In this document: positions 5,708-32,439 of the stretch, one piece after another | How positions within the stretch are numbered: the stretch's first letter is position 1 | How the letters are laid out: each line of letters opens with the position of its first letter | Source: Bacillota bacterium | Lineage (GTDB): Bacteria; Bacillota; Clostridia; Lutisporales; Lutisporaceae | Reading direction: 5' to 3' | NCBI GenBank assembly: GCA_022706825.1 | Contig: JAKJBU010000002.1 | Location: 932 to 64,931 of the forward strand | Length of the DNA: 64,000 nucleotides | Made by a program: the position numbers and the translations under genes | The notes under the pieces: generated by a model | Seen by the model: the letters and a program-made list of their open reading frames with translations, nothing else | What the model was told of the DNA's origin: nothing | Databases searched by the model: none

Positions 5708-5983
5708 GTGGCTGATTTAAAAAAGATTGCCGTTTGCATGCCGGACACGCTTTTAAAGGAAATTGATGATATGGTATGTCATAAATGTATTAATAGAAGT
5801 GAATTCATCAGGGACGCCATGCGTTTTTATATAAGTGAGATAAAGAGGTCTAATGCGGTAGAAAAGTTAAGGAACGGATATCTGGAGATGTCAGAAATAA
5901 ATATAACACTAGCAGAAATAGGACTTACGGCAGACTATGAAACAATAATAAGATATGAAACAAGGCTTGCGGAGTGTGAATAA
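5708..5983 (+). CDS. Ribbon-helix-helix (CopG-like) antitoxin, MazE/NdoAI-like
   Basis: GTG 5708 follows RBS AGGAGG. Product [20 protein letters not shown]...[12 protein letters not shown] is RHH-like and sits directly upstream of mazF, as in Bacillus ndoAI-ndoA. Confidence 0.75.
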
Positions 5984-5984
5984 T

Positions 5985-6338
5985 GTGGTTTTAAGAAGAG
6001 GGGACATTTTCTATGGAGATTTAAGCCCGGTGATAGGATCGGAACAGGGCGGTGTAAGACCCGTATTGATAATACAGAATGATATAGGAAACAAATATAG
6101 TCCCACTGTTATTGTTGCTGCAATAACTTCACAGATTAATAAAGCAAAGCTGCCTACCCATGTTGAGCTGGAAGCTTTGAAATACGGCATAACAAAGGAC
6201 TCGGTCATATTATTGGAACAAATACGAACGATAGACAAGAGAAGGCTGAAGGAAAAAATCGGCCATTTGTCGGAGGAGCTTATGAAACAGGTGGATACAG
6301 CAATTCAGATAAGCTTCGGATTAATTGAATATACATAG
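5985..6338 (+). CDS. mazF: MazF/PemK-family endoribonuclease toxin (NdoA/EndoA-like)
   Basis: [48 protein letters not shown] is near-canonical for the MazF/EndoA N-terminus. GTG 5985 lies 2 nt after the antitoxin stop. Confidence 0.9.
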
Positions 6339-7044: not shown

Positions 7045-8409
7045 ATGCTAAGACTTTATATAGAGAAGATACTGAAGATTTATAATCTGATAGATGACGT
7101 ATGTATAGTGGATAAAAACGGAATCATTCAGCATGCAGAATCTTTCGTTGCCGGCGCTTATAGTTATGATCCGAAAGAACTGGTTGGCAAGCATCTATTT
7201 GAGGTATATACAACCTCCAATGAAAATACAAGCAATCTATATGAAGTTTTAAAAACAGGCAAGCCGATATTTAATAGAATTGCTGAATGGAAAACCTATA
7301 CGGGAGATACAAGGTGCGGTTCCGTTGATACTCTGCCGATAATGAAAGGCCATGAAATAGTCGGTGCAATTGAAATTGCGAGATTTATCGGAGATGAACT
7401 GGAAAAACAGAAGATAGTCCTTGATGTTCTGGATAATAAAATAAAGTCTAAAGCAACAAGGTATTATACGTTGGATGACATCATAACACAAGATATACAA
7501 ATGATTGACATAAAAAATAAAACCAGGAGAATAGCACGGAATAATTCAACTGTTATGATATATGGAAAGACCGGGACTGGCAAGGAACTGGTCGCCCAAG
7601 CAATACACAGCTGTGGAAATAAAGAGGAAGCCCCTTTTATTTCTCAAAATTGTGCTGCCATACCTGCATCATTATTGGAAGCAATGCTATTTGGAACGGA
7701 AAAAGGGAGCTATACAGGTGCGGAGAAAAGAAAAGGGCTGTTCGAACTTGCAGAGGGCGGGACGCTTTTTCTGGATGAAATAAACTCTATGGAAATAGGC
7801 GTACAGGCCAAAATACTTAAGGCGGTAGAAGAGAAAATGATAATGAGGATCGGCGGGCAGCAGCCAATCAGGATTAATACCAGAATAATAACCGGATTAA
7901 ATGAGGATCCCATTACTGCTGTAAGAGAAAAAAGGCTGCGCGAGGATCTGTTTTATCGATTAAGTACTGTTCAGATTAATCTGCCGGACCTAGTTGACAG
8001 AAAAGGTGATATCAAAGTCCTGGTTGACAGTTTTATAAAAGAATACAATGAATCTATGGGTATGAACATTAAAGGAATAAGCAAGGAAGTTGAAAAAGTA
8101 TTCATGAATTATAAATGGCCGGGAAATGTCAGAGAGCTCAGAAATGTGATAGAAGGCGCATTTAATGTTGCAACAGGAAGCCAAATTGAGATGTGTGACT
8201 TGCCAGGGTATATGGTAATATCCGGCAAATCATTTAATACGAATGGGAAGCCGGAGATAAAAGTACTTAAGGATATGATGGAGGATTATGAAAAATCACT
8301 GGTTGTGGAGGCAATGAGAATTACCGACAATAAAATGAAAGCGGCAGAATTGCTGGGCATGTCAAAACAATCACTAAATTACAGATTGGATAAGTATAAA
8401 AACAGGTGA
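7045..8409 (+). CDS. Sigma-54-dependent transcriptional activator (PAS sensor - AAA+ - Fis-type HTH)
   Basis: Walker A GKTGTGKE, a GAFTGA-loop variant GSYTGA, LFLDEI Walker B, WPGNVRELRNVIE, and a C-terminal HTH (AAELLGMSKQSLNYRL). Confidence 0.88.
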   Translation: MLRLYIEKILKIYNLIDDVCIVDKNGIIQHAESFVAGAYSYDPKELVGKHLFEVYTTSNENTSNLYEVLKTGKPIFNRIAEWKTYTGDTRCGSVDTLPIMKGHEIVGAIEIARFIGDELEKQKIVLDVLDNKIKSKATRYYTLDDIITQDIQMIDIKNKTRRIARNNSTVMIYGKTGTGKELVAQAIHSCGNKEEAPFISQNCAAIPASLLEAMLFGTEKGSYTGAEKRKGLFELAEGGTLFLDEINSMEIGVQAKILKAVEEKMIMRIGGQQPIRINTRIITGLNEDPITAVREKRLREDLFYRLSTVQINLPDLVDRKGDIKVLVDSFIKEYNESMGMNIKGISKEVEKVFMNYKWPGNVRELRNVIEGAFNVATGSQIEMCDLPGYMVISGKSFNTNGKPEIKVLKDMMEDYEKSLVVEAMRITDNKMKAAELLGMSKQSLNYRLDKYKNR

Positions 8410-8451
8410 TATAAGAGATTGAGGGGATTTATAAGGATATTCTATATAATA

Positions 8452-8491
8452 GTAAAAATTCTTTTTACGTACCAGTAAAAAGTTTTTTTAC
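8452..8491. promoter_or_regulatory. Two 17-bp palindromes GTAAAAA-N3-TTTTTAC (putative enhancer/UAS for the adjacent sigma-54 activator)
   Basis: Sites at 8452-8468 and 8475-8491, with centres 23 bp apart, roughly 170 bp upstream of the -24/-12 promoter. Confidence 0.55.
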
Positions 8492-8644
8492 TTTTTTGCT
8501 GCAAACAGAGAAGTACGATAAATGACAAAATATCATTATTCTTCGGTGAACTTTGGAAATAGTTCCCTTAGCATGTGTGCTGCTTTGACATAAGTTTGTT
8601 TGGCAGGTATTCTCAAAACAGAAATTATTGAGTATTAAATGAAA

Positions 8645-8660
8645 TGGCACAGTATTTGCA
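8645..8660 (+). promoter_or_regulatory. Sigma-54 (-24/-12) promoter TGGCAC-N5-TTGCA
   Basis: Exact match TGGCACAGTATTTGCA with correct GG/GC spacing, about 100 nt upstream of ATG 8759 and next to a sigma-54 activator gene. Confidence 0.8.
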
Positions 8661-8758
8661 TTATTTTGCAGTTGTTAAAATGTTCAGACATACGTGTTTA
8701 ATATACATCAAGGTTGTATAATGGATCATTTTGGCAAGAAAATTATAGGAGGAATAAA

Positions 8759-9976
8759 ATGTCAAATATTAGTTCTCTTAAAGAAAAACCTATTGCCGTA
8801 TTGGGTGCCGGTGCGGTTGGGAAATCCATAGCCGCAGATTGTGCATTGGCAGGTGCCAGGGTCAGAATTTGCGACTTGCCACCTTATTCTGAAAAAACAT
8901 TGTTCGGAATAGAAAAAAGCGGTATCAAATTATATGGTGAACAGCTGAATCTATATGGTTTTGAAAGGTCCGGCGCAGCAAAAATGGAAATTGTAACCGA
9001 AAAAGTGGAAGAGGCGGTAAAAGGAGCGGGAATAATAATAGTAGCCTTGCCCTGCATAGGACACAGGGTATTTTTTGAAAGGCTGATTCCTGTGTTGGAA
9101 GACGGGATGGTGATACATATATTTCCCGACAACTATGGCAGCCTGGTTTTAAGAAAAATGATGCGGGAAGCAAATTGTACAAAAAAAGTTATTATAGGCG
9201 GATGGTCCAGTTCACCCTTCGGAACACGAGTAGATATTAAGGGCGGAGTTATAATGCCAGCCGTAAAAGTGGACTACAGGGCAATAACATTGAGAGGTGC
9301 TTCACTGCCGTCAATTGATCAGGAAGAATTTTTTGAAAGTGCAAAATATATCGGAGCTTTGGATTCGGTCACTAAAGGAGACGGCATTGAAAGCGGAGAT
9401 ACAGTAATAGACATAGGCTTCAGCAATATAAATTCCATATTGCACGCTCCCGGGACCATTCTTGGTGTTGGCGTTATGGAGAATATGGGTGTTATATTCG
9501 GTGTCAAAGAAGATTTCTCCATATACTCCCATGCATATTGCCCCTCCATATCAAGGGTCCAGTATGCATTTTATCTTGAAGAGGTAGAACTGGCAAAGGC
9601 ATTGGGCGTAGGAATACAGCATTATGAGAAAAAGCAGTTTTTCTCAAGAGAAAGCATTCTTGGCTGCGAATATATGGGAATGGATTTTGAGATTCCGTTT
9701 GAGGATATCAATCATGTTGCGTGGGGAACGGGGCCCTTTTCAATAGATACGAGATACCTTACCGAGGATATTCCGGTAGGCTGCCATATTTATCATTTGC
9801 TCGGGAAAAAGTGCGGCATAAAAACCCCTGTTATTGATTCAATGATTAATATTGCATCCGTTATGCTTGAAAGGGATTTGTATGCTGAAGGGTATACCCT
9901 TGATGATATTGGGATTGGACATATGTCATTGGAAGAATTACATGAATATCTGGACAAGGGCATATGTAAGGAATAA
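8759..9976 (+). CDS. NAD(P)-dependent opine (octopine/nopaline) dehydrogenase-family oxidoreductase
   Basis: N-terminal Rossmann fold IAVLGAGAVGKSIAADCALAGARVRICDL. Size and layout resemble the opine dehydrogenase / ketopantoate-reductase-like family. ATG 8759 follows RBS AGGAGG. Confidence 0.55.
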   Translation: MSNISSLKEKPIAVLGAGAVGKSIAADCALAGARVRICDLPPYSEKTLFGIEKSGIKLYGEQLNLYGFERSGAAKMEIVTEKVEEAVKGAGIIIVALPCIGHRVFFERLIPVLEDGMVIHIFPDNYGSLVLRKMMREANCTKKVIIGGWSSSPFGTRVDIKGGVIMPAVKVDYRAITLRGASLPSIDQEEFFESAKYIGALDSVTKGDGIESGDTVIDIGFSNINSILHAPGTILGVGVMENMGVIFGVKEDFSIYSHAYCPSISRVQYAFYLEEVELAKALGVGIQHYEKKQFFSRESILGCEYMGMDFEIPFEDINHVAWGTGPFSIDTRYLTEDIPVGCHIYHLLGKKCGIKTPVIDSMINIASVMLERDLYAEGYTLDDIGIGHMSLEELHEYLDKGICKE

Positions 9977-10080
9977 TACTGCGGAAGACATCTGCATCAG
10001 ATTATGCGGATATTGGTGATTTGGCCGGGGATTTGCCAATAGAGTTATTAAAATGTAAAAACAGTAAAAGGAGGAGCATT

Positions 10081-11493
10081 ATGAGTAATGTGCAGTTAAA
10101 AGCCGGACTGGATGAGAAGAATGACCAGAATCCATATACAGAATATAGCCTGAAGCGGATATTAAGGTTTGTTATCCCGTCCTTAATTGGAATATTGTTT
10201 TTTCTTACGCCTATAAAGGATGGTGACAAGTACAGTATCCTGGTTGCGATATTGTCAGGCAGGTTTTCCGATACTTTCATATCAGTAATGCCATATGTCG
10301 TTTACGCAATAATCCTGACCTCCGCAGCAGGGGTTATACTTGCTAAAGCAATAAAGCCGAAATTCATACTGGAAAACGAGTCACTGAATAATTTGTTTAA
10401 TGTGAGCCCTACATGGAGTGTTATAAGGATTGCCGGAGCTGTCATTACAGTAATGTGTATGCATAAGCTAGGCCCTGAAATGATTATTTCAGCCGATACA
10501 GGCATGTTTCTGATAGACGGTCTGCTTGTATACTGGATGGGTACAATTCTTTTCGCAGGTTTTTTCATGACATTCCTCATGGACTACGGATTGCTTGAGT
10601 TCACCGGAGTATTTGCTTCAAAAGTATTTCGCCCGCTGTTTACATTACCGGGGCGTTCAGCAGTGGACTGTATGGCATCATGGGTAGGAGACGCTATCGT
10701 TGGTGTTCTTCTGACAACCAACCAATTTGAACAAGGGTATTATTCCAGGAGAGAAGCTGCGACTATTGCAACTACATTTTCAGCCGTGAGTATAGCTTTT
10801 GCGGTTATTGTAATAACACAAGTAGGTCTGGAGCACATGTTTTTTCAGTTTTTACTTACGACCGCGGCAATTGGAGTAATCTGCGGTATTATCATGCCTA
10901 GGATACCGCCCTTGTCTTTAGTAAAGGATGATTACTATAAAACAAACAAACCGGGTTTATTTGATCAGCTTGAAAACCTACCCCTGTTCAAACGGGCGCT
11001 TTATACGGCAGTTGAAAAGGCCGGCAGGACAGAAATATCTGCTGTAAAATGGATTAAAAACAGCCTTAGAACAGCTTTTGAAAATGCAATTGCCTGCATG
11101 CCGGCAGTAATGTTTATAGGAACCGTATCATTAGTATTATCGACATATACGCCTGTCTTTACATGGCTGGGTTACCCGTTCCTGCCTTTGCTTAAGCTTT
11201 TGCAGATACCTGAAGCTGCTGCGGCTTCTCCATGTGTTGTCGTAGGCTTTGGAGATATGTTTATACCGTCAATTTTGGCATCGGCTACGATTGAAAGTGA
11301 ATTTACCAGATTTGTAATAGCTGTAGTTTCAATCACCCAGCTGATATATATGTCTGAAGTCGGCCCGCTGCTGTTAAGCTCAAAGCTGTCCATCAAATTC
11401 AAGGACTTGGTTTTCATTTTCCTTGAGAGGACTGTAATCAGCCTTGTTTTTGCAACTTTGATTACCAGATTTATTATACAATTGATGCCTTAA
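10081..11493 (+). CDS. YjiH-like polytopic membrane transporter (nucleoside-recognition/Gate domain family)
   Basis: About 12 hydrophobic segments. ATG 10081 follows AAAGGAGGAG. Overall resemblance to YjiH-type proteins that accompany amino-acid fermentation operons. Confidence 0.55.
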   Translation: MSNVQLKAGLDEKNDQNPYTEYSLKRILRFVIPSLIGILFFLTPIKDGDKYSILVAILSGRFSDTFISVMPYVVYAIILTSAAGVILAKAIKPKFILENESLNNLFNVSPTWSVIRIAGAVITVMCMHKLGPEMIISADTGMFLIDGLLVYWMGTILFAGFFMTFLMDYGLLEFTGVFASKVFRPLFTLPGRSAVDCMASWVGDAIVGVLLTTNQFEQGYYSRREAATIATTFSAVSIAFAVIVITQVGLEHMFFQFLLTTAAIGVICGIIMPRIPPLSLVKDDYYKTNKPGLFDQLENLPLFKRALYTAVEKAGRTEISAVKWIKNSLRTAFENAIACMPAVMFIGTVSLVLSTYTPVFTWLGYPFLPLLKLLQIPEAAAASPCVVVGFGDMFIPSILASATIESEFTRFVIAVVSITQLIYMSEVGPLLLSSKLSIKFKDLVFIFLERTVISLVFATLITRFIIQLMP

Positions 11494-11498
11494 AGGGG

Positions 11499-12662
11499 AT
11501 GGTGCTATTGAAACATAAATATATTGCAAAGAGATACTGGAAGGATATTACAACGCCGATGGGGCAGGTTGATGAGCTTTCCAAACAATATGATGATGTT
11601 ATAAATTTGAGTTTGGGGGATCCTGACCTGGTAACACACGAAATAATCATTGATAATGCTATGAAGGATGCCAGGGCAGGACATACCAAATATACTGATT
11701 TCAGGGGAGATCCCGATCTCAGGGCGGAGATAATAAAATACTATCGGGATGAGTACAGTATAGACATTAAGGATGAAAGCATAATGGTGACGGCAAGCGG
11801 CTGCCTGGCTATGTATCTGGCGCTTGAAGCGATACTGGATGACGGGGATGAAGTAATAATACATGCGCCTTATTTTACCCCGTATTCCCAGCAGATAAAG
11901 CTTGCGAGAGGAATACCAATAATACTGGATACTTATGAAGAAGAATACTTTCAGGTGAATGTCGGCAGATTGGAAACGCTTATTACCGAAAGAACGAAGG
12001 CTATAGTAATAAATACGCCAAATAATCCTTCGGGAAGCTGTTTTACAAGAGATACTATGGAAAACATAGCAAATGCTGCAAAAAAACATGACCTGATGAT
12101 TATTGCTGATGATATTTACGGCTCCTACAGCTTTGAACAACCTTTTATACCGATGGTAACTCTTAATGATATGCAAGACAGGACTATAACAATAAACAGC
12201 TTCTCGAAGGACTTTACCATGACCGGTTGGAGAATAGGTCATATTATTGCTCCTGATTATATTGTCAGGACTATACGGCAAATAAATGAAAATGTTGTAT
12301 TTACCGCACCTTCCATATCCCAAAGAGCAGCAATACATGCTTTGAGAAACAGGAAAGAGATACAGCCTCCTATGGTGGAAGAGTATAGAAAAAGAGTCGA
12401 ATATGCAGTAAGCAGAATTAACAATATCCCTAAAATATCAGTGCTTCCCTCAAGAGGGACATTCTATCTGTTTATTAATATTAAAGAGACAGGGCTGACT
12501 TCTGTTGAAGCAAGCGATTTAATACTAAGGGAAGCTCATGTTCTTACCATACCCGGAATATCCTTCGGTGACTGCGGCGAAGGCTATATAAGGATTGCCT
12601 GCACCGTAGGAATAGAAAAGCTGAAGGAAGCATTTGACAGAATATCAATGTGCTGGGTATAG
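11499..12662 (+). CDS. Class I/II PLP-dependent aminotransferase
   Basis: Motifs INTPNNPSG and NSFSKDFTMTGWRIG (PLP lysine), plus C-terminal YIRIACT. The start is ATG 11499 or TTG 11508. Confidence 0.85.
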   Translation: MVLLKHKYIAKRYWKDITTPMGQVDELSKQYDDVINLSLGDPDLVTHEIIIDNAMKDARAGHTKYTDFRGDPDLRAEIIKYYRDEYSIDIKDESIMVTASGCLAMYLALEAILDDGDEVIIHAPYFTPYSQQIKLARGIPIILDTYEEEYFQVNVGRLETLITERTKAIVINTPNNPSGSCFTRDTMENIANAAKKHDLMIIADDIYGSYSFEQPFIPMVTLNDMQDRTITINSFSKDFTMTGWRIGHIIAPDYIVRTIRQINENVVFTAPSISQRAAIHALRNRKEIQPPMVEEYRKRVEYAVSRINNIPKISVLPSRGTFYLFINIKETGLTSVEASDLILREAHVLTIPGISFGDCGEGYIRIACTVGIEKLKEAFDRISMCWV

Positions 12663-12700
12663 AACATAAGAACTCGCTAAGGGAAATATATACATTTAAT

Positions 12701-12740
12701 AAACCTTCTGATAATATTAAATCAGAAGGTTTATTATTTC
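12701..12740 (+). terminator. Rho-independent terminator of the sigma-54 operon
   Basis: Stem AAACCTTCTGAT / ATCAGAAGGTTT with an 8-nt loop, followed by ATTATTTCC. Confidence 0.65.
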
Positions 12741-12755
12741 CAAGGAGGGATACAT

Positions 12756-14339
12756 ATGGCTCGTTTTATCGCAGCTATGCTTGTATTTGCAATGATATCA
12801 GCGGGCGCGACAGGCACTGCCGTTTATGGAGAGGAATACCCTACGGTTGTTTTGCCTGAAGTACCTATAAGGATTGAAGGAGTGGAAGCCTCAGTTTCGG
12901 GGTTCCTGGGAGAAACGGAAAGAGGCCCTGCAGAACCCCGGCTGGTGACAAGCTGGGATGAGTACAGTATGTTGTACGGAGGGAATAAAAATACCTCATC
13001 TTATTTACCTCATTCTGTCAGGGGATTTTTCGAAAACGGAGGAAAGAAGCTTTATGTGGCCAGAGTAATTGATAGCGAAGCCGCTTCAGCCGCAGTTAAG
13101 CTTCTTGCAGGAAAAGCTCCGGCACTAACCTTGAGGGCTATAGGAGAGGGCAGTTGGGGGAACCGGATTCAAATTAGGGTTTCTGAAGCATCGGGGAGCA
13201 GTGAGTACAATCCCATGTTCAGGCTGGAAATCAGTTATTGGGATGCCAAACCTTTTGATATAATGAGGAATCCAAAGCTGAGTAAGCTCAAGACATATCC
13301 TTACGTGACGGAAGTATTTGACAACCTGTCTATGAATCATGAAGACAAAAATTTCTATAAAGACAAAATTAACCGGAATTCCAGGCTCATAACTGCCGAT
13401 AAGGAGGCAGGGGACTTAGGATTAATACCGGACTCTTTTAAGGAACCTGTATTTTTAAATGGGGGCAATGACGGCGGAAATATTGATTTGGAAGATTACC
13501 TGGGATATAACAAGAGCCCTGCTGCAGTCAGAGGGCTGGCTGCCTTGGATGCTATTGATGAGATTTCCCTGCTGTACTGTCCCGATGCCCTAAGTGTTGC
13601 AGGTTTGGCCCAGGAGCTTATACATAGTTGTGAGAAGCTTGAGGATCGTATTGTAATCCTGGATTCAAAAAACGGTGATACAGGCCCAATGGGGGATGAG
13701 GATTTTAACAGTTCCTATGCTGCATTATATTATCCATGGATTATGATTGACGAGGGTTTGGAAACACAGCGTACCGTTCCTCCGGGGGGCCATATTGCAG
13801 GTATTTATGCATTGACGGAAGCTCAATACGGTATCAGCAAGGCTCCTGCAGGAATGGTGATAAAAGGCGCAAAGGGGCTTGAATTCAGTATTGATGAACA
13901 TGATACGGACATCTTGAATTCAAGAGGCGTTAACAGTATACGTGATTTCCCGGGAAGAGGGATAACTGTTTGGGGAGCAAGGACTTTAGCTTTGGAAGCT
14001 GACGAGGAATACAGATATGTTAATTTAAGGAGGATGAAAAATTATATAGAAGAATCCATACGGGAAGGACTTTCTTACACAAGTGATTGTTACAACAATC
14101 AGGAGCTTTGGGCGAGAGTCAAATCCGCCGTTACGGATTTTCTTACTCAGGAATGGAGGAAGGGTTGCTTTGCGGGCACCACTGCCAGGGATGCTTTCTA
14201 TGTAATGGTTGATCGCTCTACCATGAATCAGGCCGATATAGAAGAGGGGCGGCTCATAATAGATATTGGAGCAGCTTTTTTGAGACCTGCGGAATTCTAT
14301 ATTATTAGGATAATGCTGCCGGTCTGGGGGAGCAATTAG
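12756..14339 (+). CDS. Phage/contractile-injection-system tail sheath family protein with a signal-peptide-like N-terminus (orphan)
   Basis: The conserved sheath N-region is present: IEGVEASVSGFLGETERGPAEPRLVTSWDEYSMLYGG...VRGFFENGGKKLYVARV. So is the sheath C-domain: GVNSIRDFPGRGITVWGARTL...YRYVNLRRMKNYIEESI...LWARVKSAVTDFL...RPAEFYIIRI. It is preceded by MARFIAAMLVFAMISAGATGTAVYG. Strong RBS AAGGAGGG. Confidence 0.8.
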   Translation: MARFIAAMLVFAMISAGATGTAVYGEEYPTVVLPEVPIRIEGVEASVSGFLGETERGPAEPRLVTSWDEYSMLYGGNKNTSSYLPHSVRGFFENGGKKLYVARVIDSEAASAAVKLLAGKAPALTLRAIGEGSWGNRIQIRVSEASGSSEYNPMFRLEISYWDAKPFDIMRNPKLSKLKTYPYVTEVFDNLSMNHEDKNFYKDKINRNSRLITADKEAGDLGLIPDSFKEPVFLNGGNDGGNIDLEDYLGYNKSPAAVRGLAALDAIDEISLLYCPDALSVAGLAQELIHSCEKLEDRIVILDSKNGDTGPMGDEDFNSSYAALYYPWIMIDEGLETQRTVPPGGHIAGIYALTEAQYGISKAPAGMVIKGAKGLEFSIDEHDTDILNSRGVNSIRDFPGRGITVWGARTLALEADEEYRYVNLRRMKNYIEESIREGLSYTSDCYNNQELWARVKSAVTDFLTQEWRKGCFAGTTARDAFYVMVDRSTMNQADIEEGRLIIDIGAAFLRPAEFYIIRIMLPVWGSN

Positions 14340-14377
14340 GTGCTCACATAAGTCAGAATGAGAGGGGAGATGCAGGA

Positions 14378-15334
14378 ATGTATCCGGGATATATAACGGA
14401 TGTAAAGGGCATAAAAGCAGGGCACAGTCAATCCGAGAAAGGCATGACCGGTTGTACGGCGGTTATCTGTGAGAAGGGTGCCGTAGGGGGAGTGGACGTG
14501 AGAGGCTCTGCTCCTGGAACCAGGGAAACGGACTTATTGAAGCCGGACAAGATGGTGGACAGGATTCATGCAGTAGTACTGTCCGGAGGCAGCGCTTTCG
14601 GACTTGAAGCGGCCTCCGGGGTGATGAGGTATTTGGAAGAACAGGGAATCGGATTTGATGTCGGGGTTGCTAAAGTGCCTATTGTGGCTTCTGCAGTTAT
14701 TTTTGACCTGAACATTGGTGACCCCAGAATCAGACCGGATTTGAATATGGGTTACGATGCCGCAAGGAGTGCATCTGCGGAAGAAAGCAGACAAGGAAAT
14801 ACCGGCTGCGGATTGGGTGCTACCGTAGGTAAGGCCTTTGGCCCCGAGCATGCCATGAAATCCGGGCTGGGAAGTGCCTCTGTCAAGTCAGGGGAACTGA
14901 TAGTGTCTGCAATAGTATCGGTAAACAGCTTTGGAGATATTTTTGACTATGAAACCGGCAGGCAGCTGGCAGGGGTATATGACTATGAAAAAAGGGAAAT
15001 GCTGAATACATATGAAATAATAAAAAGGGAAGGCAGGGCGTTGGGCTTTCCCATGAGGAATACAACCATAGGAGTGGTTGCCGCAAATGCCGTATTAACT
15101 AAAGCTGAAGCAAATAAAATTGCGGCCATGGCGCAGAACGGTTTTGCCAGATCAATCAATCCGGTGCATACCATGATGGATGGCGATACAATATTTACTA
15201 TGGCTACCAACGAGATAAAAGCGGATATCAACCTTGTGGGCACTATGGCCGCTGAGGCGGTTTCACGGGCAGTAACCAATGCAGTTGTATATGCAAAGTC
15301 ATGCCATGGGCTGATTGCCTGCTGTGATATATAG
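14378..15334 (+). CDS. P1/S58-family peptidase (DmpA-like L-aminopeptidase/D-esterase)
   Basis: ITDVKGIKAGH...GCTAVI...GGVDVRGSAPGTRETDLL...HAVVLSGGSAFGLEAASGV...VPIVASAVIFDL matches the DmpA/S58 pattern. Confidence 0.8.
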   Translation: MYPGYITDVKGIKAGHSQSEKGMTGCTAVICEKGAVGGVDVRGSAPGTRETDLLKPDKMVDRIHAVVLSGGSAFGLEAASGVMRYLEEQGIGFDVGVAKVPIVASAVIFDLNIGDPRIRPDLNMGYDAARSASAEESRQGNTGCGLGATVGKAFGPEHAMKSGLGSASVKSGELIVSAIVSVNSFGDIFDYETGRQLAGVYDYEKREMLNTYEIIKREGRALGFPMRNTTIGVVAANAVLTKAEANKIAAMAQNGFARSINPVHTMMDGDTIFTMATNEIKADINLVGTMAAEAVSRAVTNAVVYAKSCHGLIACCDI

Positions 15335-15508
15335 TATACCGTTTATACCCTCCAAATCGTTTTTAAAATTAACTTATTGTTTTTTTATATTATTTTTATT
15401 ATAATATTCTTGTTGCCAGCATCCGTAAGGAGTTGGACCGGATATAGTTATAAACATTATGTTTTACGACTGGTATCCAAAATATGGAACTAGAGCGGAG
15501 GTATTAAA

Positions 15509-16258
15509 ATGGAAGCAGTAAAGAGATTTGACGTAAGAAAATTAGTTATTGTCGGGGTATTGGGAGGTGTATCCGCAATTCTGGGCATGACGCCCCTGGG
15601 ATTCATACCCGTAGGACCGACAAGGGCAACTATAATGCACATTCCTGTAATAATAGGTGCTATTATGGAAGGCCCGGTAGTTGGCGCACTTGTAGGGCTT
15701 ATATTTGGACTCTTCAGTGTTTTCCAGGCATTAACCAATCCCACACCGGTATCCTTTGTTTTCCTTAATCCATTGGTTTCCATAGTGCCAAGGGTGCTTA
15801 TCGGTATTACATCCTATTATGTATATACTGCTTTGAGCAATCTCGGAAACAGAAAAACCTTAGGTATCCTTAATGTCATCTGGATAGCAATAATCGGCTA
15901 CCTAAGCTATGGTATTTACAAAAATATTGAAAATTCTCAAAGCCCCTGGTTAATAGCTGTGAATATTGCGCTGATAGCTTTTACAGCAGCGATAGCATTT
16001 TTGGCAAACAGGAAGTTTAGGGGCAAAGCACTGGATCTTGTAATATCGGCTATTGTAGGAACAATGACCAATACAGTGCTGGTTTTGAGCATGATTTATT
16101 TGATTTATGCGGAAAGCTTTGTAAAGAGTATAGGACAAGACCCTGCATTGGCAAGGAAAATAATTATGGGCATAGGCATTGCGAACGGAATACCGGAGAC
16201 AATTATTGCAATATTGATTGTAACCAGTGTGGTAGGCGCTTTAAAAAGAGCCGAATAG
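15509..16258 (+). CDS. ECF-transporter substrate-capture (S) component, PanT-like
   Basis: Six-TM small protein with LGFIPVGPTRATIMHIPVIIGAIMEGPVVGALVG. RBS GGAGG. The substrate assignment (pantothenate-like) is tentative. Confidence 0.6.
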   Translation: MEAVKRFDVRKLVIVGVLGGVSAILGMTPLGFIPVGPTRATIMHIPVIIGAIMEGPVVGALVGLIFGLFSVFQALTNPTPVSFVFLNPLVSIVPRVLIGITSYYVYTALSNLGNRKTLGILNVIWIAIIGYLSYGIYKNIENSQSPWLIAVNIALIAFTAAIAFLANRKFRGKALDLVISAIVGTMTNTVLVLSMIYLIYAESFVKSIGQDPALARKIIMGIGIANGIPETIIAILIVTSVVGALKRAE

Positions 16259-16294: not shown

Positions 16295-16331
16295 CACCTT
16301 CTGTTAGTATATTGACAGAAGGTGTTTTTTT
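16295..16331 (+). terminator. Rho-independent terminator
   Basis: Stem CACCTTCTGT / ACAGAAGGTG followed by TTTTTTT. Confidence 0.8.
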
Positions 16332-16332
16332 A

Positions 16333-16362
16333 TTGTATAGGAAAGTATACTTTCCTATACAA
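16333..16362. promoter_or_regulatory. Perfect 30-bp palindrome TTGTATAGGAAAGTA|TACTTTCCTATACAA (candidate operator)
   Basis: Seen directly. It lies between the terminator and the GC-rich hairpin series that precedes the HerA-like gene. Confidence 0.35.
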
Positions 16363-16510
16363 TGGGGGATGCAAGGGGGTGAAGCCCCCTGCCGATAAAG
16401 GAGGGTGCTCAGGATGCTTGCATCCGTCGAAGGGAACCATAGGGTTCCCTAGCGAAAAAAAGCGTCGCGAGACGCATTTTTTTGAAAATACAGTGAAAGG
16501 AGCGGCATTT

Positions 16511-18046
16511 ATGTACTTTGATAATAAAGTATGGATAGCCAAAGGGGATAATCCCGTTTACCTCCTGCCCAATATGGCAAATCGACACGGCCTGATAGCG
16601 GGAGCAACCGGTACAGGAAAAACCATTACTCTCAAAGTAATGGCAGAGTCTTTCAGCGATATGGGAGTTCCTGTCTTTCTTACCGATATCAAGGGAGACC
16701 TGGCCGGACTGGCGGATCAGGGCAGCGATAATCCCAATATGGCAGAAAGAATAGCTAAGCTGGGGTTAGAGGGCTTCAGCTATAAATCGTTCCCCGTATG
16801 TTATTGGGATGTATTCGGCAAGGGCGGCCATCCTGTGCGTACTACCATTTCTGAGATGGGGGCTTTGCTGTTGTCCCGGCTGCTGGGTTTGAATGATACA
16901 CAAGCAGGGGTGCTGAACATAGTATTCCGCGTAGCGGATGATAACGGCATGCTTCTGTTGGATATGAAGGATCTTAGGGCTATGCTCAATTATGTGGGTG
17001 AAAACGCAAAGGAGTACACCTTGAAATATGGAACTGTCTCATCTCAAAGCATAGGGGCAATTCAGCGCAGCCTGCTTTTCCTGGAAGATCAGGGGGGAGC
17101 ACAGTTCTTTGGAGAGCCTGCGCTGGATATTTATGACTGGATGAGGACCGATTCCGAAGGACGAGGACATATAAATATATTGCATTGCGTGGAGCTTTTC
17201 CACAGCCCTGCATTATATTCCACATTTTTGCTGTGGATGCTGTCGGAGCTTTTTGAAACTTTACCTGAAACAGGAGATGTGAGTAAGCCCAAGCTGGTAT
17301 TTTTCTTTGATGAAGCCCATTTATTGTTTGATGATACACCAAAGGCACTGCTTCAAAAAATTGAGCAGGTGGTAAGGTTGATAAGATCCAAGGGGGTCGG
17401 AGTATATTTTATAACACAGAATCCGATGGATTTACCGCAGGAAGTGCTGGGACAGCTGGGAAATCGTGTGCAGCATGCGCTTCGTGCTTATACGCCGGCG
17501 GAGCAGAAGACGGTAAAAGCAGCGGCGGAGACCTTCAGGACGAATCCGGCCTTCGATACGGAAACTGCCATAACAGAGCTGGGCACTGGAGAAGCATTGG
17601 TGTCATGCCTGGATTCCAAAGGTATCCCGGGTATGGTGGAGCGTGCATTCATTCTTCCTCCCCAGAGTAAATTCGGAACGATTGATGATTTTACCCGCCT
17701 TCGGATAATTAATTCTTCATCCATGAGCGGCAAGTACGATACCGAAGTGGACAGGGAATCTGCCTACGAGATGTTGCAGGCAAAGGCAATGCGGGAGCAG
17801 ATGGCTGAAAAAGAGGAGAAGGAATATATAGAGCGGCAGAAACAGTTGGAAAAGGAAGAAAAAGAGAGGCAGAAGCAGCTGGAGGCAGAGCAAAAGGAGA
17901 GGGAAAGAATTAGAAGAAAAGAAGAAACCCGTAAATACAGCAGAAAGACTTTAGCTGAACGAGCCGCCGATAATATAGTCGGAACTGTTGGCAGAGAGGT
18001 TGGCAGATCACTTATACGCGGAATACTCGGTTCCTTAAAGAAATAA
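16511..18046 (+). CDS. HerA-like (DUF853/YjgR family) P-loop NTPase with a Lys/Glu-rich C-terminal tail
   Basis: [38 protein letters not shown] (Walker A), [11 protein letters not shown] (Walker B), and [15 protein letters not shown] 16511 follows GAAAGGAG. The track ORF start at 16322 is an in-frame read-through of the leader. Confidence 0.8.
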
Positions 18047-26170: not shown

Positions 26171-28120
26171 GTGACATATGAATCAGGAAAATGCAAAATG
26201 TTTGGTGTAAAGCATATAGGAAGTGAAAAAATGAAAGAAAGCTTGATATTTGGAATGATATTGAAAGTATATGACAGGCTTGTATTCTACTATGAAAACA
26301 GCATGTTTTTCATTGTTATGCAGCGTTTAGGGCATGGCTTCGGGAAGCTTGCATCCTCAAGCAGCATATTGAGTTTTTTTGACATGGAATGGAACATCGC
26401 GGATGCGTGGAAGCAAAGCCTTGTATTCAGAATCCTCACATCCCCCTTAAGGTGGTTCGGATATGCTTCACAAAGATTCTCGGAGGGTGTAAATGCAGCT
26501 ATTGAAGGGAGCAGGGTACTGAAGGCTGTAAGGGTTTTTCTGGAGAACCTGCTTGATATGAGCACGAGGGTTTATGGGCTGCTTTTTACTACCTTTTCCG
26601 CAGCACAGGGTCTATTGGATTTTGCCTCGGGAAGCATTATAGAATTGGCATTATTTCTGGGGGGGGCAGCGCTGATACTGATAAACAGGCCGGTGAAGGC
26701 CCTGGCGGAGGGCAGTATAATCACCGGGGTGATATATGGTTTTTTTAACGCATCTCACGGTGCATTTTATGATAGAAGAACGGAAAATGCAGTTTTAAAC
26801 AAAAGCTTTGAAATTACTGCAATCGTTACAGGAATAGCATTGGGAGCAATATGGCATTTTCTGCAGCCGGTGACCTTTGTTCTGGCAGTTGGAGGAATCG
26901 CCGCCCTTGTATTGGTGCTCTGGAGGTATGAGATAGGAGTTTTTGCCGTTGCGGGATTCATCCCTTTGGCTCCGACCATGGCTCTGCTGGGGCTGATCCT
27001 GCTTACCGCGGTATCATTTTTTATCAGGCTTTTCAGGGATAAGAGCATGAAGCTCAGGAGCACAATTCTGGATTATTTCGTAGTATTGTTTGGAATAGTG
27101 CTTCTCTACAGCTTCATTACATCATATACCCCCGGCAGCAGCATGCTTGCATTATTGATACATATAGCATTCATAGTGTTTTATTTCATATTGGTAAATA
27201 CAATTAAGACCAGGCAGCAGCTTTATGTTTTGGCAGCACTGCTGGTGCTTTCAACAACCGTAACAGCCCTATATGGACTATATCAGCTGAAAACTGTGGG
27301 AGCTACTTCCGAAGCGTGGGTGGATACAACGCTGTTTGAGGACATAAAGGCCCGGGTGGGCTCCACCTTCGAAAACCCCAACGTGCTGGGAGAATACCTG
27401 GTACTCATCATACCTGTTGCAATTGCCATGCTGTGGGGACAGAAGAATTGGATATCAAAGCTAATAATCCTGGGGCTGTCGGCTATTATGCTCGGATGCC
27501 TCGTCTATACTTACTCAAGAGGTGCATATGTCGGATTGATGCTGGCTTTTGCCTTGTTTGCAGTGCTTAGGGATAGGAGGTTCATAATTCTTGGGGTAAT
27601 CGGTCTGCTGATGCTTCCCTTTATGTTGCCGGCTTCTGTAATCAACAGGTTTGCGAGTATCGGAAACCTGAACGATACATCTTCCTTCTACAGGATTTCC
27701 GTATGGCTGGGGTCTTTGAGGCTGGCGCAGGATTATTGGCTTTCGGGTATAGGACTGGGCTTGGAGCCCTTTAATCTGGTTTATCCCAAGTATTCACTTA
27801 ACGCCGCATATGCTCTTCATTCCCATAATATATACATACAGCTTATGATAGAGACCGGCATAGCGGGTCTATTGATGTTCTTTGCAATAATAGCGGTTTA
27901 TTACAAGACTATGCTGGCAGGCTTCTATAAAACCAGGGACAGATTTACCTCCACCTTCATGATAGCCATTGCATCCGGCATGGCAGGATATCTTGCCCAG
28001 GGAATGGTTGAGAATATATGGTACAACAACAGGGTGCTCCTGACCTTCTGGGTCATGCTGGCCTTCGGAATGATAGCCAAGGCTCTTATCACAGAGGATA
28101 AAGAGGTGTCGGGCATATGA
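26171..28120 (+). CDS. O-antigen ligase/polymerase-family (Wzy_C-type) polytopic membrane protein
   Basis: More than 10 TM segments, with YSRGAYVGL and HSHNIYIQLMIETGI motifs typical of O-antigen ligase-like proteins. The start codon is uncertain (26171 GTG or 26231 ATG). Confidence 0.7.
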   Translation: MTYESGKCKMFGVKHIGSEKMKESLIFGMILKVYDRLVFYYENSMFFIVMQRLGHGFGKLASSSSILSFFDMEWNIADAWKQSLVFRILTSPLRWFGYASQRFSEGVNAAIEGSRVLKAVRVFLENLLDMSTRVYGLLFTTFSAAQGLLDFASGSIIELALFLGGAALILINRPVKALAEGSIITGVIYGFFNASHGAFYDRRTENAVLNKSFEITAIVTGIALGAIWHFLQPVTFVLAVGGIAALVLVLWRYEIGVFAVAGFIPLAPTMALLGLILLTAVSFFIRLFRDKSMKLRSTILDYFVVLFGIVLLYSFITSYTPGSSMLALLIHIAFIVFYFILVNTIKTRQQLYVLAALLVLSTTVTALYGLYQLKTVGATSEAWVDTTLFEDIKARVGSTFENPNVLGEYLVLIIPVAIAMLWGQKNWISKLIILGLSAIMLGCLVYTYSRGAYVGLMLAFALFAVLRDRRFIILGVIGLLMLPFMLPASVINRFASIGNLNDTSSFYRISVWLGSLRLAQDYWLSGIGLGLEPFNLVYPKYSLNAAYALHSHNIYIQLMIETGIAGLLMFFAIIAVYYKTMLAGFYKTRDRFTSTFMIAIASGMAGYLAQGMVENIWYNNRVLLTFWVMLAFGMIAKALITEDKEVSGI

Positions 28121-29226: not shown

Positions 29227-29236
29227 GATAAAGATT

Positions 29237-29734: not shown

Positions 29735-29746
29735 GGAGGGGTTGAT

Positions 29747-30250: not shown

Positions 30251-30271
30251 TAATATAATACAATGTAATGA

Positions 30272-30330
30272 GTTTGTGAAGTACTTCGACAGTAGGGAAG
30301 TAAACGTCGTGTCTGACACTTATTACATAG
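30272..30330. repeat. Fragment related to the left arm / inner-hairpin base of repeat copy B
   Basis: GTTTGTGAAGTACTTCGACAGTAGGGAAGTA (30272-30302) versus GTTTGTAAAGTACTCCGACTGTAGGGGAAGTA (49221-49252), with about 28 of 32 positions identical. CGAC...GTCG forms a short hairpin. Confidence 0.55.
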
Positions 30331-31560: not shown

Positions 31561-31706
31561 GGCATGTTATAGAAATAATGAGAAACCGTTTTATAGCATA
31601 TTAGCACGACGACGAAAGACTACATCGTCAACTATCAAGACAGAATGGATTAGATGTCAGTTCTTGCTGACAGAGCAGGTTAGATTTTGGTAGGGGGAGT
31701 AAAAAC

Positions 31707-32432: not shown

Positions 32433-32439
32433 ATTTAAA

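What the first reader, a model, noticed from the sequence alone, without database searches (positions are those of the whole stretch)
12756..14339. Orphan contractile-sheath homologue carrying a signal-peptide-like N-terminus
The 527-aa product has both hallmark ends of phage / contractile-injection-system tail sheaths. The N-region is ...IEGVEASVSGFLGETERGP.EPRLVTSWDEY..LYGG...VRGFFENGG.KLYVARV. The C-domain is GVNSIRDFPGRGITVWGARTL...YRYVNLRRM...IE.SI...LWARVKSAV.DFL...RPAEF.IIRI.
Two things are odd. First, no tube, baseplate, spike, tape-measure or AAA+ recycling gene is anywhere in the 64 kb. The neighbours are a sigma-54 amino-acid operon and a DmpA-like peptidase. Second, the conserved sheath N-terminus is preceded by MARFIAAMLVFAMISAGATGTAVYG, which looks like a Sec signal or membrane anchor, behind a strong RBS and with no in-frame alternative start. 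Sheaths assemble in the cytoplasm, so an exported or membrane-tethered stand-alone sheath-fold protein would be an exaptation.
Basis: partly seen in the sequence, partly recalled or inferred. Interest (0 to 1): 0.65.

Follow-up and report, generated by a model that had tools for sequence, protein, structure and literature searches.

The report
Exported stand-alone phage-sheath homologue in Clostridia
This gene encodes a full-length relative of the contractile sheath of phage tails and bacterial injection systems; it sits alone among ordinary chromosomal genes, carries an export or membrane-anchor leader, and belongs to a small, previously undescribed Clostridia-only family that seems to have been repurposed for a job outside the cytoplasm.

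Summary
ORF 12756-14339 (+) encodes a 527-aa protein. It passes both Pfam sheath domains and folds (pLDDT 86) like solved CIS sheaths; the best match is Halogeometricum Cis2 (TM 0.80/0.86). No other tail or CIS gene lies in the 64 kb.

The hydrophobic N-terminus is a conserved feature. Thirteen homologues (34-89% identical) all have a basic tip, a 17-27-residue uncharged hydrophobic run and, in 11 of 13, an acidic flank. They form an exclusive clade (200/200 bootstraps among 125 sheaths). All named members come from Clostridia metagenome-assembled genomes. None of 10 distinct genomic contexts contains CIS genes. The nearest canonical relative, checked the same way, sits in a complete eCIS cluster.

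Neighbours are often cell-envelope genes: a lipoprotein, LysM/YkuD transpeptidases and an MBOAT-DHHW pair. dN/dS is 0.15-0.25. The canonical N-terminal handshake arm is replaced or vestigial, the C-terminal tail is shortened, and a near-invariant VFEP motif has decayed.

Best reading: a Sec-exported or N-terminally anchored sheath-fold protein that works independently of any CIS, probably a structural and possibly self-assembling envelope component. Export, assembly and the absence of a CIS elsewhere in the genome remain untested.

The parts
12699..12739 (+). Terminator-like hairpin (14-bp stem, 8-nt loop, T-rich tail) that closes the upstream sigma-54 operon. It ends just before the sheath gene's RBS.
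   Evidence: RNA fold gives -28.4 kcal/mol and z = -6.08 against shuffles. The simple terminator scan did not call it.
12742..12749 (+). Ribosome-binding site AAGGAGGG, 6 nt before the ATG
   Evidence: Read directly from the sequence. The same AAGGAGGGAT motif precedes the orthologue in L002/L006.
12756..14339 (+). CDS of the leader-bearing stand-alone sheath homologue (527 aa)
   Evidence: AF2 model pLDDT 86.1, pTM 0.83. Foldseek best hit 9ezm_A, TM 0.80/0.86. dN/dS 0.15-0.25.
12756..12830 (+). Leader (aa 1-25): n-region MAR, uncharged hydrophobic run F4-G25, candidate signal-peptidase sites GTA|VY (22/23) and VYG|EE (25/26)
   Evidence: Leader table. Disordered in the AF2 model (residues 1-30 below pLDDT 50). 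Conserved in kind in all 13 clade members.
12819..12836 (+). Vestige of the canonical N-terminal handshake arm core: AVYGEE, against canonical GVYVEE
   Evidence: MAFFT and HMMER against the Streptomyces CIS sheath 8bl4 both align AVYGEE with GVYVEE.
12870..13085 (+). Conserved N-terminal part of the sheath core domain (aa 39-110: IEGVEASVSGFLGETERGP ... GFFENGGKKLYVARV)
   Evidence: Alignments A1/A2. pLDDT above 90.
13536..13988 (+). Pfam Phage_sheath_1 (subtilisin-like) domain, aa 261-411
13995..14312 (+). Pfam Phage_sheath_1C C-terminal domain, aa 414-519. It includes the retained last beta-strand PAEFYIIRI. Only about 5 residues of tail follow, against about 10 in canonical sheaths.
14082..14093 (+). 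Decayed patch (aa 443-446, SDCY) where canonical sheaths have the near-invariant V-F-E-P
   Evidence: Rate-shift analysis. The secondary structure is the same in the window model and the canonical model.
14378..15334 (+). S58/DmpA-type peptidase, 38 nt downstream on the same strand, probably co-transcribed. It is linked only in the closest relatives (window, P0002) and is not a conserved partner across the clade.
   Evidence: Absent next to P0004, P0005, P0006, P0014, P0157, P0269, P0132.

Best explanation
The gene encodes a contractile-sheath homologue that has left the contractile injection system. An N-terminal Sec-type leader replaced the first seven or so residues of the ancestral handshake arm. 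That leader is either cleaved or retained as an N-in/C-out anchor, so the sheath-fold body is placed outside the cytoplasmic membrane of a monoderm Clostridia cell. There it acts on its own, without tube, baseplate or recycling ATPase.

Its most likely role is as a structural component of the cell envelope. It may still self-associate through the retained sheath core, in the way that isolated sheath proteins form polysheaths.

Shown here: sheath homology and fold; lone position in 10 distinct contexts; monophyly of the leader-bearing proteins; leader anatomy; purifying selection; erosion of CIS-specific features.

Inferred: actual export, envelope role, self-assembly.
For: Sheath identity:
- Both Pfam domains score above their gathering thresholds, and PHROG sheath families match.
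- The AF2 model (pLDDT 86) matches the Halogeometricum borinquense Cis2 sheath (TM 0.80/0.86, 37% identity), followed by Streptomyces CIS, PVC, AFP, AlgoCIS and Anabaena sheaths.
- The secondary-structure topology equals that of a canonical control model.

Leader:
- All 13 clade members have a net-positive tip (+1 to +3) and an uncharged hydrophobic run of 17-27 residues. In 11 of 13 the next 15 residues are acidic (-1 to -5). This fits N-in/C-out by the positive-inside rule.
- Several have classical sites: VNA|AD, AAA|DD, VFA|EE.
- None of about 110 canonical sheaths, and none of the sheath ORFs recovered from 67 viral-contig loci, has such a leader.
- The leader codons are under purifying selection (dN/dS 0.27).

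Single origin: the 13 proteins form an exclusive clade with 200/200 NJ bootstraps among 125 sheaths.

Independence from CIS:
- No CIS or phage gene was found within the DNA available (up to 10 kb on each side; the shortest contigs are 3-4 kb) in 10 distinct contexts.
- The closest canonical relative, P0008, examined the same way, lies in a full eCIS cluster: AAA+, Pvc16, two sheaths, two gp19 tubes, eCIS_core, CIS_tube, gpD, base_V, PAAR and gp25.
- No clade member was found in IMG/VR (best match 41% identity).

Envelope neighbourhood: a lipoprotein sits directly upstream. LysM-YkuD L,D-transpeptidases, a LysM/Cu_amine_oxidN1 protein, an MBOAT-DHHW acyltransferase pair and a Big_5 protein also occur nearby.

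Functional gene: the ORFs are intact, with dN/dS of 0.15-0.25.

Relaxed CIS constraints: the N-arm is lost or vestigial in most members, the C-tail is shortened, and canonical VFEP (90-99% conserved) has decayed. In total 16 of 132 canonical-conserved positions have shifted.

Self-assembly precedent: sheath proteins form polysheaths without tube or baseplate, and this tolerates terminal truncations (PMC6357053, PMC6088184).
Against: - No dedicated signal-peptide or topology predictor was available, and no experimental localisation exists.
- In the P0157/P0268-P0270 subgroup no good signal-peptidase site is visible, so those members may be anchored rather than secreted.
- Only the window and flanks of up to 10 kb were inspected, so a tube or baseplate cluster elsewhere in the genomes is not excluded.
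- The neighbourhoods are not conserved across the clade, so the envelope link is only a statistical impression from a few loci.
- No wall-binding domain (SLH, LysM, CWB) is present in the protein itself.
- In the window, a strong terminator sits directly before the RBS, and only a weak promoter-like site (9/12 matches) overlaps it. Expression in this particular genome is therefore not evident from the sequence.
Confidence: 0.6

Rival explanations
1. It is the working sheath of a contractile injection system whose other genes lie elsewhere in the genome (a split locus). The hydrophobic N-terminus tethers the cytoplasmic sheath or particle to the membrane, giving a T6SS-like or thylakoid-anchored-CIS-like mode.
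For: The sheath fold is full-length and well conserved, with 73 of 132 canonical-conserved positions kept. The last beta-strand is retained, and in P0132/P0191 an intact N-arm motif is retained too. Membrane-attached CIS exist in archaea and cyanobacteria (PMC11566945; 7b5h). The rest of the genome could not be searched.
Against: All 10 distinct contexts lack CIS genes, whereas canonical relatives sit in full clusters. The charge distribution predicts that the body lies outside the membrane, not in the cytoplasm. The N-arm is lost in most members and the near-invariant VFEP motif has decayed. In known anchored CIS, other components do the anchoring and the sheath has no leader (my own knowledge, not tested here).
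Confidence: 0.07
2. It is a decaying remnant of a prophage, tailocin or eCIS cluster, and the leader is a chance hydrophobic N-terminus or a mis-called start.
For: Lone phage-like genes in bacterial chromosomes are often relics. In-frame TTG (codon 33) and GTG (codon 43) starts exist. In the window, a terminator abuts the RBS.
Against: The ORFs are intact and of constant length in at least 13 lineages down to 34% identity. dN/dS is 0.15-0.25, and 0.27 for the leader codons. The leader is conserved in kind despite complete sequence turnover. The clade has 200/200 bootstrap support. No phage genes flank any copy, and there are no copies in IMG/VR. The strong RBS is correctly spaced for the ATG at 12756.
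Confidence: 0.04
3. It is an anti-phage or anti-CIS decoy: a sheath mimic displayed at the cell surface or membrane. It would bind the tail tubes or sheaths of incoming contractile phages or tailocins, or poison sheath polymerisation, and so block injection.
For: The sheath core, which mediates subunit-subunit and tube contacts, is retained while the N-terminal donor arm is lost. That is the anatomy expected of a chain terminator. It would be exposed where tails act. The window also carries defence-type genes: HerA/mad8-like, RhuM and a PLD-DpnI_C nuclease.
Against: PADLOC gave no hit. The gene is not in a recognisable defence island in most contexts. Its chromosomal position is stable within the window lineage (alr-mazEF synteny), unlike the usual turnover of defence genes. 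No precedent was found.
Confidence: 0.07
4. It is a sporulation-specific protein exported into the forespore intermembrane space or the spore envelope, where it acts as a structural element of the cortex, coat or exosporium.
For: The carriers are Clostridia. Neighbours in several loci belong to families that are spore-associated in Firmicutes (my own knowledge of those families): YkuD, LysM proteins, SleB-type Hydrolase_2, CotH.
Against: No sporulation promoter was identified. The neighbours are equally typical of vegetative wall metabolism. Sporulation ability of the carrier MAGs was not assessed.
Confidence: 0.12

Closest known systems
Cis2 sheath of the Halogeometricum borinquense archaeal T6SS-like CIS (PDB 9ezm) and the ~510-aa sheaths of Bacillota, Nitrospirota and archaeal eCIS clusters (e.g. 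P0008 of Phosphitispora fastidiosa)
   Same: 37-47% sequence identity over almost the full length. Same three-domain fold (TM 0.80/0.86) and the same core motifs: GFLGETERGP, YYPW, PPGGH, KAPA, GRGI.VWGART, PAEF.
   Different: Those proteins start with MPEYLSPGVYVEE (the handshake arm), have no leader and end in a ~10-residue tail. They keep VFEP and always sit next to tube, baseplate, spike, cap and AAA+ genes. They assemble in the cytoplasm (PMC11566945).
Afp2-4 / Pvc2-4 / AlgoCIS Alg2 / Streptomyces CIS sheaths (extracellular and cytoplasmic CIS)
   Same: Same family and fold (Foldseek E 1e-19 to 1e-30). Same domain I/II core that forms the sheath wall (PMC8894135).
   Different: Those are parts of multi-gene particles. 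They are held together by N/C beta-strand handshakes and bind a tube through an attachment helix (PMC12546770, PMC8894135). Here there is no tube gene, the N-arm is eroded, and a leader is present.
Polysheaths: tube-free self-assemblies of isolated sheath proteins (T4 gp18, phiKZ, FV3 gp053)
   Same: They show that a sheath protein alone can build stable tubules, even after the loss of 25 N-terminal or 100 C-terminal residues (PMC6357053, PMC6088184). This is the most plausible template for what a lone sheath homologue could do.
   Different: Polysheaths are by-products or in-vitro products formed in the cytoplasm, not a natural exported structure. Assembly of the window protein was not tested.
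Membrane-anchored CIS (Anabaena thylakoid-anchored tCIS, PDB 7b5h; archaeal T6SS-like CIS)
   Same: A sheath-containing apparatus attached to a membrane. The sheaths are structural homologues.
   Different: Those are complete CIS clusters, and anchoring is by other components (my own knowledge, not tested here). Here the sheath homologue itself carries the hydrophobic segment, and its predicted topology puts the body outside the membrane.
Other exaptations of phage structural folds (encapsulins from HK97 capsid; T6SS, tailocins, eCIS from tails; orphan hcp/vgrG islands)
   Same: In concept, a virus-derived structural protein recruited for a cellular role.
   Different: None of these involves a stand-alone sheath with a Sec leader. 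Orphan T6SS islands carry hcp, vgrG or PAAR, not sheaths (PMC13098142 abstract).

Membership tests
Contractile tail / CIS sheath protein family (Pfam PF04984 + PF17482) | Phage_sheath_1 domain above the gathering threshold | tested here: met
   45.6 bits against GA 31.4, aa 261-411
Contractile tail / CIS sheath protein family (Pfam PF04984 + PF17482) | Phage_sheath_1C C-terminal domain above the gathering threshold | tested here: met
   40.4 bits against GA 26.9, aa 414-519
Contractile tail / CIS sheath protein family (Pfam PF04984 + PF17482) | Sheath fold: core domain built from N- and C-terminal parts, plus inserted domains | tested here: met
   AF2 pLDDT 86.1 and pTM 0.83. Foldseek 9ezm_A E 1.4e-51, TM 0.80/0.86. 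Same secondary-structure order as the canonical control.
Contractile tail / CIS sheath protein family (Pfam PF04984 + PF17482) | N-terminal handshake arm (MPEYLSPGVYVEE in the nearest canonical sheaths) | tested here: not met
   In the window only a vestige (AVYGEE) remains, directly after the hydrophobic leader. The arm is absent in P0005, P0006, P0014, P0157 and P0268-70, and retained only in P0132 and P0191.
Contractile tail / CIS sheath protein family (Pfam PF04984 + PF17482) | C-terminal handshake strand and tail | tested here: inconclusive
   The last beta-strand PAEFYIIRI is retained. The tail after it is about 5 residues, against about 10 in canonical sheaths and 0-1 in P0132, P0157 and P0268-70. 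Which segment is exchanged between subunits in this subfamily could not be determined without coordinates.
Functional contractile injection system (phage tail, tailocin, eCIS, T6SS-like CIS) | Tube gene (gp19 / CIS_tube / Hcp) adjacent to the sheath | tested here: not met
   None in the 64-kb window, and none in the flanks of nine other distinct clade loci. Present in control L169. The ~165-aa gene upstream of P0005 and P0006 is a lipoprotein, not a tube.
Functional contractile injection system (phage tail, tailocin, eCIS, T6SS-like CIS) | Baseplate (gp25, gp6/eCIS_core), spike (gpD/base_V/PAAR), cap and AAA+ genes in the same cluster | tested here: not met
   Same scans as above. The DUF815 ATPase next to P0269 shows no specific similarity to the eCIS AAA+ (E 0.08).
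Functional contractile injection system (phage tail, tailocin, eCIS, T6SS-like CIS) | A CIS cluster elsewhere in the same genome that lacks its own sheath | not testable with these tools
   Only the window and flanks of up to 10 kb are accessible. The window's genome was not found among the GTDB species representatives.
Functional contractile injection system (phage tail, tailocin, eCIS, T6SS-like CIS) | Cytoplasmic subunit without an export signal | tested here: not met
   All 13 clade members have a leader. None of about 110 canonical sheaths, and none of the viral-contig sheath ORFs recovered, has one.
Functional contractile injection system (phage tail, tailocin, eCIS, T6SS-like CIS) | Near-invariant core motifs of the nearest canonical subfamily (e.g. 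W-V-V-F-E-P, W419, R98) | tested here: not met
   VFEP (90-99% conserved) is unconstrained in the clade, W419 has become Y/F, and R98 has become K. In all, 16 of 132 conserved positions have shifted and 73 are kept.
Sec-type signal peptide / N-terminal signal anchor | Positively charged n-region followed by a hydrophobic h-region | tested here: met
   Net +1 to +3, then an uncharged run of 17-27 residues with mean Kyte-Doolittle 1.4-2.8, in all members
Sec-type signal peptide / N-terminal signal anchor | c-region with small residues at -3/-1 (signal peptidase I site) | tested here: inconclusive
   Plausible in the window (GTA|VY, VYG|EE), P0005 (VNA|AD), P0006 (AAA|DD) and P0014 (VFA|EE). Not evident in P0157 or P0268-70, which may be uncleaved anchors. 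This was rule-based only.
Sec-type signal peptide / N-terminal signal anchor | Call by a trained predictor (SignalP, DeepTMHMM) or experimental export | not testable with these tools
Prophage / tailocin remnant | Flanking phage genes, presence in viral collections, signs of decay | tested here: not met
   No phage genes flank any copy. The best IMG/VR match is 41% identical and lacks a leader. dN/dS is 0.15-0.25 and the ORFs are intact.
Known anti-phage defence systems (PADLOC-DB) | Match to a defence-system protein model | tested here: not met
   No hit for the window protein or P0269

The most novel reading that the evidence does not exclude
Exported sheath subunits polymerise outside the cytoplasmic membrane into a tube-free, polysheath-like nanotube or lattice. 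That would be a previously unknown kind of bacterial surface or envelope structure, derived from a phage-tail sheath and built through the Sec pathway rather than by cytoplasmic CIS assembly.
Probability: 0.2. Interest if true: 0.85.

Novelty: new variant of a known kind. Interest (0 to 1): 0.68.

Why it matters
Contractile sheaths are known only as parts of multi-protein injection machines that assemble in the cytoplasm: phage tails, tailocins, eCIS and T6SS. A conserved, selected family of sheath homologues that carry an export or anchor leader, and have no tube, baseplate or ATPase next to them, would be the first case of the sheath fold being recruited for a CIS-independent, extracytoplasmic role.

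It offers a clean system for two questions. Which parts of the sheath are needed for what, given that the arms and the VFEP patch are eroded while the core is kept? And can sheath self-assembly be used as a building principle for envelope structures?

It also matters for annotation. These genes are currently labelled 'phage tail sheath protein' and could be miscounted as prophage or CIS markers in Clostridia MAGs from digesters and sludge.

Tried and rejected
- The ~165-aa gene upstream of P0005 and P0006 as a tube: rejected. It is a lipoprotein with a lipobox and no Pfam hit.
- The DUF815 AAA+ gene overlapping P0269 as a relic of the eCIS ATPase: rejected (BLASTP E 0.08).
- Alternative downstream start codons (TTG codon 33, GTG codon 43): considered and judged unlikely, because the leader is conserved and selected and the RBS is placed for the ATG.
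- A structural change at the decayed VFEP patch: none. Both the window model and the canonical control show a short helix plus loop there.
- Residue-level mapping of the tube-attachment helix: not possible. The papers' main text gives no residue numbers and no coordinates were available.
- Scans of metagenome and viral contigs with the clade alignment: the tool chose generic sheath motifs, so almost all loci were canonical sheaths. They were useful only as negative controls, and they yielded L022 (99% identical) and L058 (P0269-like).
- Genome-contig scan: it found only one MAG (Clostridiaceae bacterium STE_150), with the gene split over two contigs.
- NCBIfam and PADLOC: no hits.
- Literature searches for signal-peptide-bearing, secreted or orphan sheaths: nothing relevant.
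- P0227 (TM-anchored sheath): not part of the clade, so an independent event.
- Promoter scan: only a weak sigma-70-like site (9/12) overlapping the terminator. No conclusion about regulation.
Full report
**1. The observation**

The ORF 12756-14339 (+) exists as described. It is 527 aa long and starts with ATG, 6 nt after the strong RBS AAGGAGGG. It matches Pfam Phage_sheath_1 (aa 261-411, 45.6 bits, GA 31.4) and Phage_sheath_1C (aa 414-519, 40.4 bits, GA 26.9). It also matches PHROG tail-sheath families with E of about 1e-46.

An AlphaFold2 model built on 85 sequences is confident (pLDDT 86.1, pTM 0.83), except for residues 1-30. Its best structural match in the PDB is the contracted sheath Cis2 of Halogeometricum borinquense (9ezm_A, E 1.4e-51, TM 0.80/0.86, 37% identity). 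The next matches are the Streptomyces CIS, PVC, AFP, AlgoCIS and Anabaena sheaths, then phage sheaths.

I scanned 40 further ORFs of 150 aa or more across the 64 kb against Pfam. They encode housekeeping functions:
- alr, argJCBD, proBA, gltX, hut genes and Lon;
- a wall-polysaccharide cluster;
- a few defence-like genes.

There is no tube, baseplate, spike, tape-measure, cap or CIS ATPase.

One detail in the finding needs correcting. In-frame TTG (codon 33) and GTG (codon 43) codons do exist, so the claim of no alternative start is true only for ATG.

**2. The hydrophobic N-terminus is a conserved, clade-defining trait**

A search of 5.8 billion proteins gave a tight group (P0002-P0006, 57-89% identical), followed by a drop to about 45% identity with ordinary ~510-aa sheaths.

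In alignment, every ordinary sheath begins MPEYLSPGVYVEE. All members of the tight group begin instead with a basic tip and a hydrophobic run. The sequence of that run has turned over completely between subgroups, but its character is kept.

An exhaustive HMMER search of 1.84 billion representatives and a profile search added P0014, P0132, P0157, P0191 and P0268-P0270. That gives 13 proteins in total, 34-89% identical to the window protein.

All 13 share this anatomy:
- a net-positive n-region (+1 to +3);
- an uncharged run of 17-27 residues;
- in 11 of 13, an acidic stretch after the run (-1 to -5).

By the positive-inside rule this is the anatomy of a Sec signal peptide or an N-in/C-out signal anchor. 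Several members have classical cleavage motifs: VNA|AD, AAA|DD, VFA|EE, and in the window GTA|VY or VYG|EE. The P0157/P0268-70 subgroup has none and may stay anchored.

No canonical sheath in my sets has such a leader. That covers about 110 proteins and the sheath ORFs recovered from 67 IMG/VR loci.

In a neighbour-joining analysis of 125 sheaths over 465 columns, the 13 leader-bearing proteins form an exclusive clade in 200 of 200 bootstraps. A separately TM-anchored sheath (P0227) falls elsewhere. The leader was therefore acquired once and has been kept since.

**3. Always outside CIS clusters**

I examined the flanks of clade members in 10 distinct contexts, up to 10 kb on each side where the contigs allowed:

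| Member | Locus | Neighbours |
|---|---|---|
| Window lineage | L007-L010, L022, L170 | aminotransferase upstream, S58 peptidase downstream |
| P0004 | L002 | alr-mazEF upstream, two-component system downstream |
| P0005, P0006 | L011, L001 | lipoprotein directly upstream; LysM-YkuD L,D-transpeptidases downstream on the other strand |
| P0014 | L012 | DUF6143 genes; a Big_5 protein |
| P0157 | L013 | MBOAT-DHHW pair |
| P0269 | L016-19 (including a 1.8-Mb contig); L058 is a P0269-like copy | DUF815 ATPase, LysM/Cu_amine_oxidN1 protein, MBOAT-DHHW |
| P0132 | L020 | GGDEF protein |
| P0191 | L021 | DEAD-box helicase |

 None of these contexts contains a CIS or phage gene.

As a positive control for the method, I examined the nearest canonical relative, P0008 (Phosphitispora fastidiosa), the same way. 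It lies in a complete eCIS cluster with AAA+, Pvc16 cap, two sheaths, two gp19 tubes, eCIS_core, CIS_tube, gpD, base_V, PAAR and gp25.

Two leads that could have pointed to a hidden CIS were checked and rejected:
- The ~165-aa gene upstream of P0005 and P0006 is a lipoprotein, not a tube.
- The DUF815 ATPase is unrelated to the eCIS ATPase.

No clade member occurs in IMG/VR. PADLOC and NCBIfam give no hit.

Within the window lineage the gene is chromosomally stable. In L002/L006 it follows alr-mazEF directly. In the window, a sigma-54-controlled four-gene operon lies between mazEF and the sheath gene. That operon ends in a strong terminator hairpin (z = -6.1) just before the conserved RBS.

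**4. A functional gene with relaxed CIS-specific constraints**

Pairwise dN/dS is 0.15-0.25 over the gene. For the leader codons it is 0.27 in the window versus P0004 comparison.

Of 132 positions that are at least 85% conserved in canonical sheaths, 73 are kept in the clade and 16 are replaced. The most striking change is the contiguous V-F-E-P patch (aa 443-446; 90-99% conserved in canonical sheaths), which is unconstrained in the clade. A control model of canonical P0008 (pLDDT 90.2) has the same secondary structure there and the same overall topology. So the fold is unchanged and only the constraint is lost.

Published structures show how sheath subunits interlock. The N-terminal strand of one subunit and the C-terminal strand of another extend the beta-sheet in the C-terminal part of domain I of a third subunit. 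This is the 'handshake' mesh. An attachment helix in domain I binds the tube (PMC6088184, PMC12546770, PMC8894135).

In the clade:
- The N-arm is intact only in P0132 and P0191.
- It is a vestige in the window subgroup. AVYGEE is aligned with GVYVEE by both MAFFT and HMMER.
- It is gone in the other members.
- The last strand, PAEFYIIRI, is retained throughout.
- The ~10-residue tail after that strand is shortened to about 5 residues in the window, and to 0-1 residues in P0132, P0157 and P0268-70.

**5. What it most likely is and does**

The evidence fits a sheath homologue that was captured by the Sec pathway and now works outside the cytoplasmic membrane of monoderm Clostridia, independently of any CIS. 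The neighbours recur in kind but are not conserved: a lipoprotein, LysM proteins, L,D-transpeptidases, an MBOAT-DHHW surface-polymer acyltransferase pair, and an Ig-like protein. They suggest a cell-envelope role.

The sheath core is under purifying selection, and isolated sheath proteins can form stable polysheaths without tube or baseplate, even after terminal truncation (PMC6357053, PMC6088184). Self-assembly into an oligomer, tubule or lattice is therefore a reasonable possibility, but it is untested.

Shown here: homology, fold, lone position, monophyly, leader anatomy and selection. Inferred: export, envelope role and assembly.

Rival explanations, with my estimates:
- a split-locus CIS sheath with a membrane tether (about 0.07);
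- a decaying relic (about 0.04);
- a surface decoy against contractile phages or tailocins (about 0.07);
- a sporulation-specific envelope protein (about 0.12; this is a special case of the main reading).

**6. Distribution and novelty**

Where the sources give names, carriers are Clostridiaceae bacterium MAGs, an Acetivibrionales bacterium, Thermoclostridium sp. and Bacillota bacterium. Where the record names give a source, the samples are a biogas fermenter and activated sludge. All are annotated only as 'phage tail sheath protein' or 'hypothetical protein'.

Full-text searches found no description of signal-bearing, secreted or stand-alone sheaths. A 2022 survey of sheath evolution mentions neither signals nor membranes.

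I rate this as a new variant of a known kind: a known protein family in a new architecture, location and genomic setting. If extracellular assembly were shown, it would be a categorically new structure.

**7. Limits**

- No trained signal or topology predictor was available.
- Whole genomes could not be searched.
- There are no expression data.
- The phylogeny is distance-based.
- Contexts come from about ten loci, several of them on short contigs.

Noticed in passing
P0253 (656 aa) and P0227 (578 aa), hits: P0253 begins with a segment that looks like a TIR domain by eye (MVPDLFISYSTKD...; not scanned against any family library), fused to a sheath body. Its nearest neighbour, P0227, has an independent N-terminal TM segment. 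Neither belongs to the Clostridia leader clade.
   Followed up: partly
L012:7547-8704: The gene just downstream of the leader-bearing sheath P0014 encodes a 385-aa protein that combines a Big_5 Ig-like domain with two copies of the ribosomal L7/L12 C-terminal domain (E 1.8e-40). This is an odd architecture.
   Followed up: no
window 12605-15590 vs L170: The window and the 89%-identical orthologue locus L170 are 100% identical for the 151 nt upstream plus about the first 170 nt of the gene. They then diverge by roughly 5-15% at the nucleotide level through the rest of the sheath gene and the S58 gene. This is either a recombination breakpoint inside the gene or a chimeric metagenome contig.
   Followed up: partly
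window 7045-12662: A sigma-54 activator, an octopine-DH-like dehydrogenase, a Gate-family transporter and an aminotransferase form a block. It lies between mazEF (about 5708-6338) and the sheath gene. The block is absent from the orthologous locus L002/L006, where mazF is directly upstream, so there has been an insertion or deletion between close lineages.
   Followed up: partly
window 16322-18046: A HerA-like ATPase (HerA_C, 742 bits) also matches the PADLOC models mad8 and HerA. It may be a defence-system component. No partner gene was examined.
   Followed up: no
window 26171-39935: A cell-wall polysaccharide cluster: Wzy-like ligase, GT4 glycosyltransferases, polysaccharide pyruvyl transferase, GH26-like protein, an EPSP_synthase-family protein (PF00275) and a WecG/TagA transferase. 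It contains a tandem pair of DUF4330 genes (29237-30250). It is interrupted by a RhuM-family gene (30544-31560) and a PLD-nuclease/DpnI_C gene (32643-33467).
   Followed up: no
P0007 (812 aa), P0018 (796 aa), hits: These are canonical eCIS-type sheaths in which the middle insertion domain is repeated three or four times in tandem (repeats of the ...LKLKKG...FDNLSVD... unit). This is an unusual way of enlarging the sheath surface.
   Followed up: no
L016:8653-10017 / L016:10001-11641: In the P0269 lineage a DUF815 AAA+ ATPase gene overlaps the start of the leader-bearing sheath gene by 17 nt, which suggests translational coupling. It is unrelated to the eCIS ATPase (E 0.08), and its role is unknown.
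   Followed up: partly
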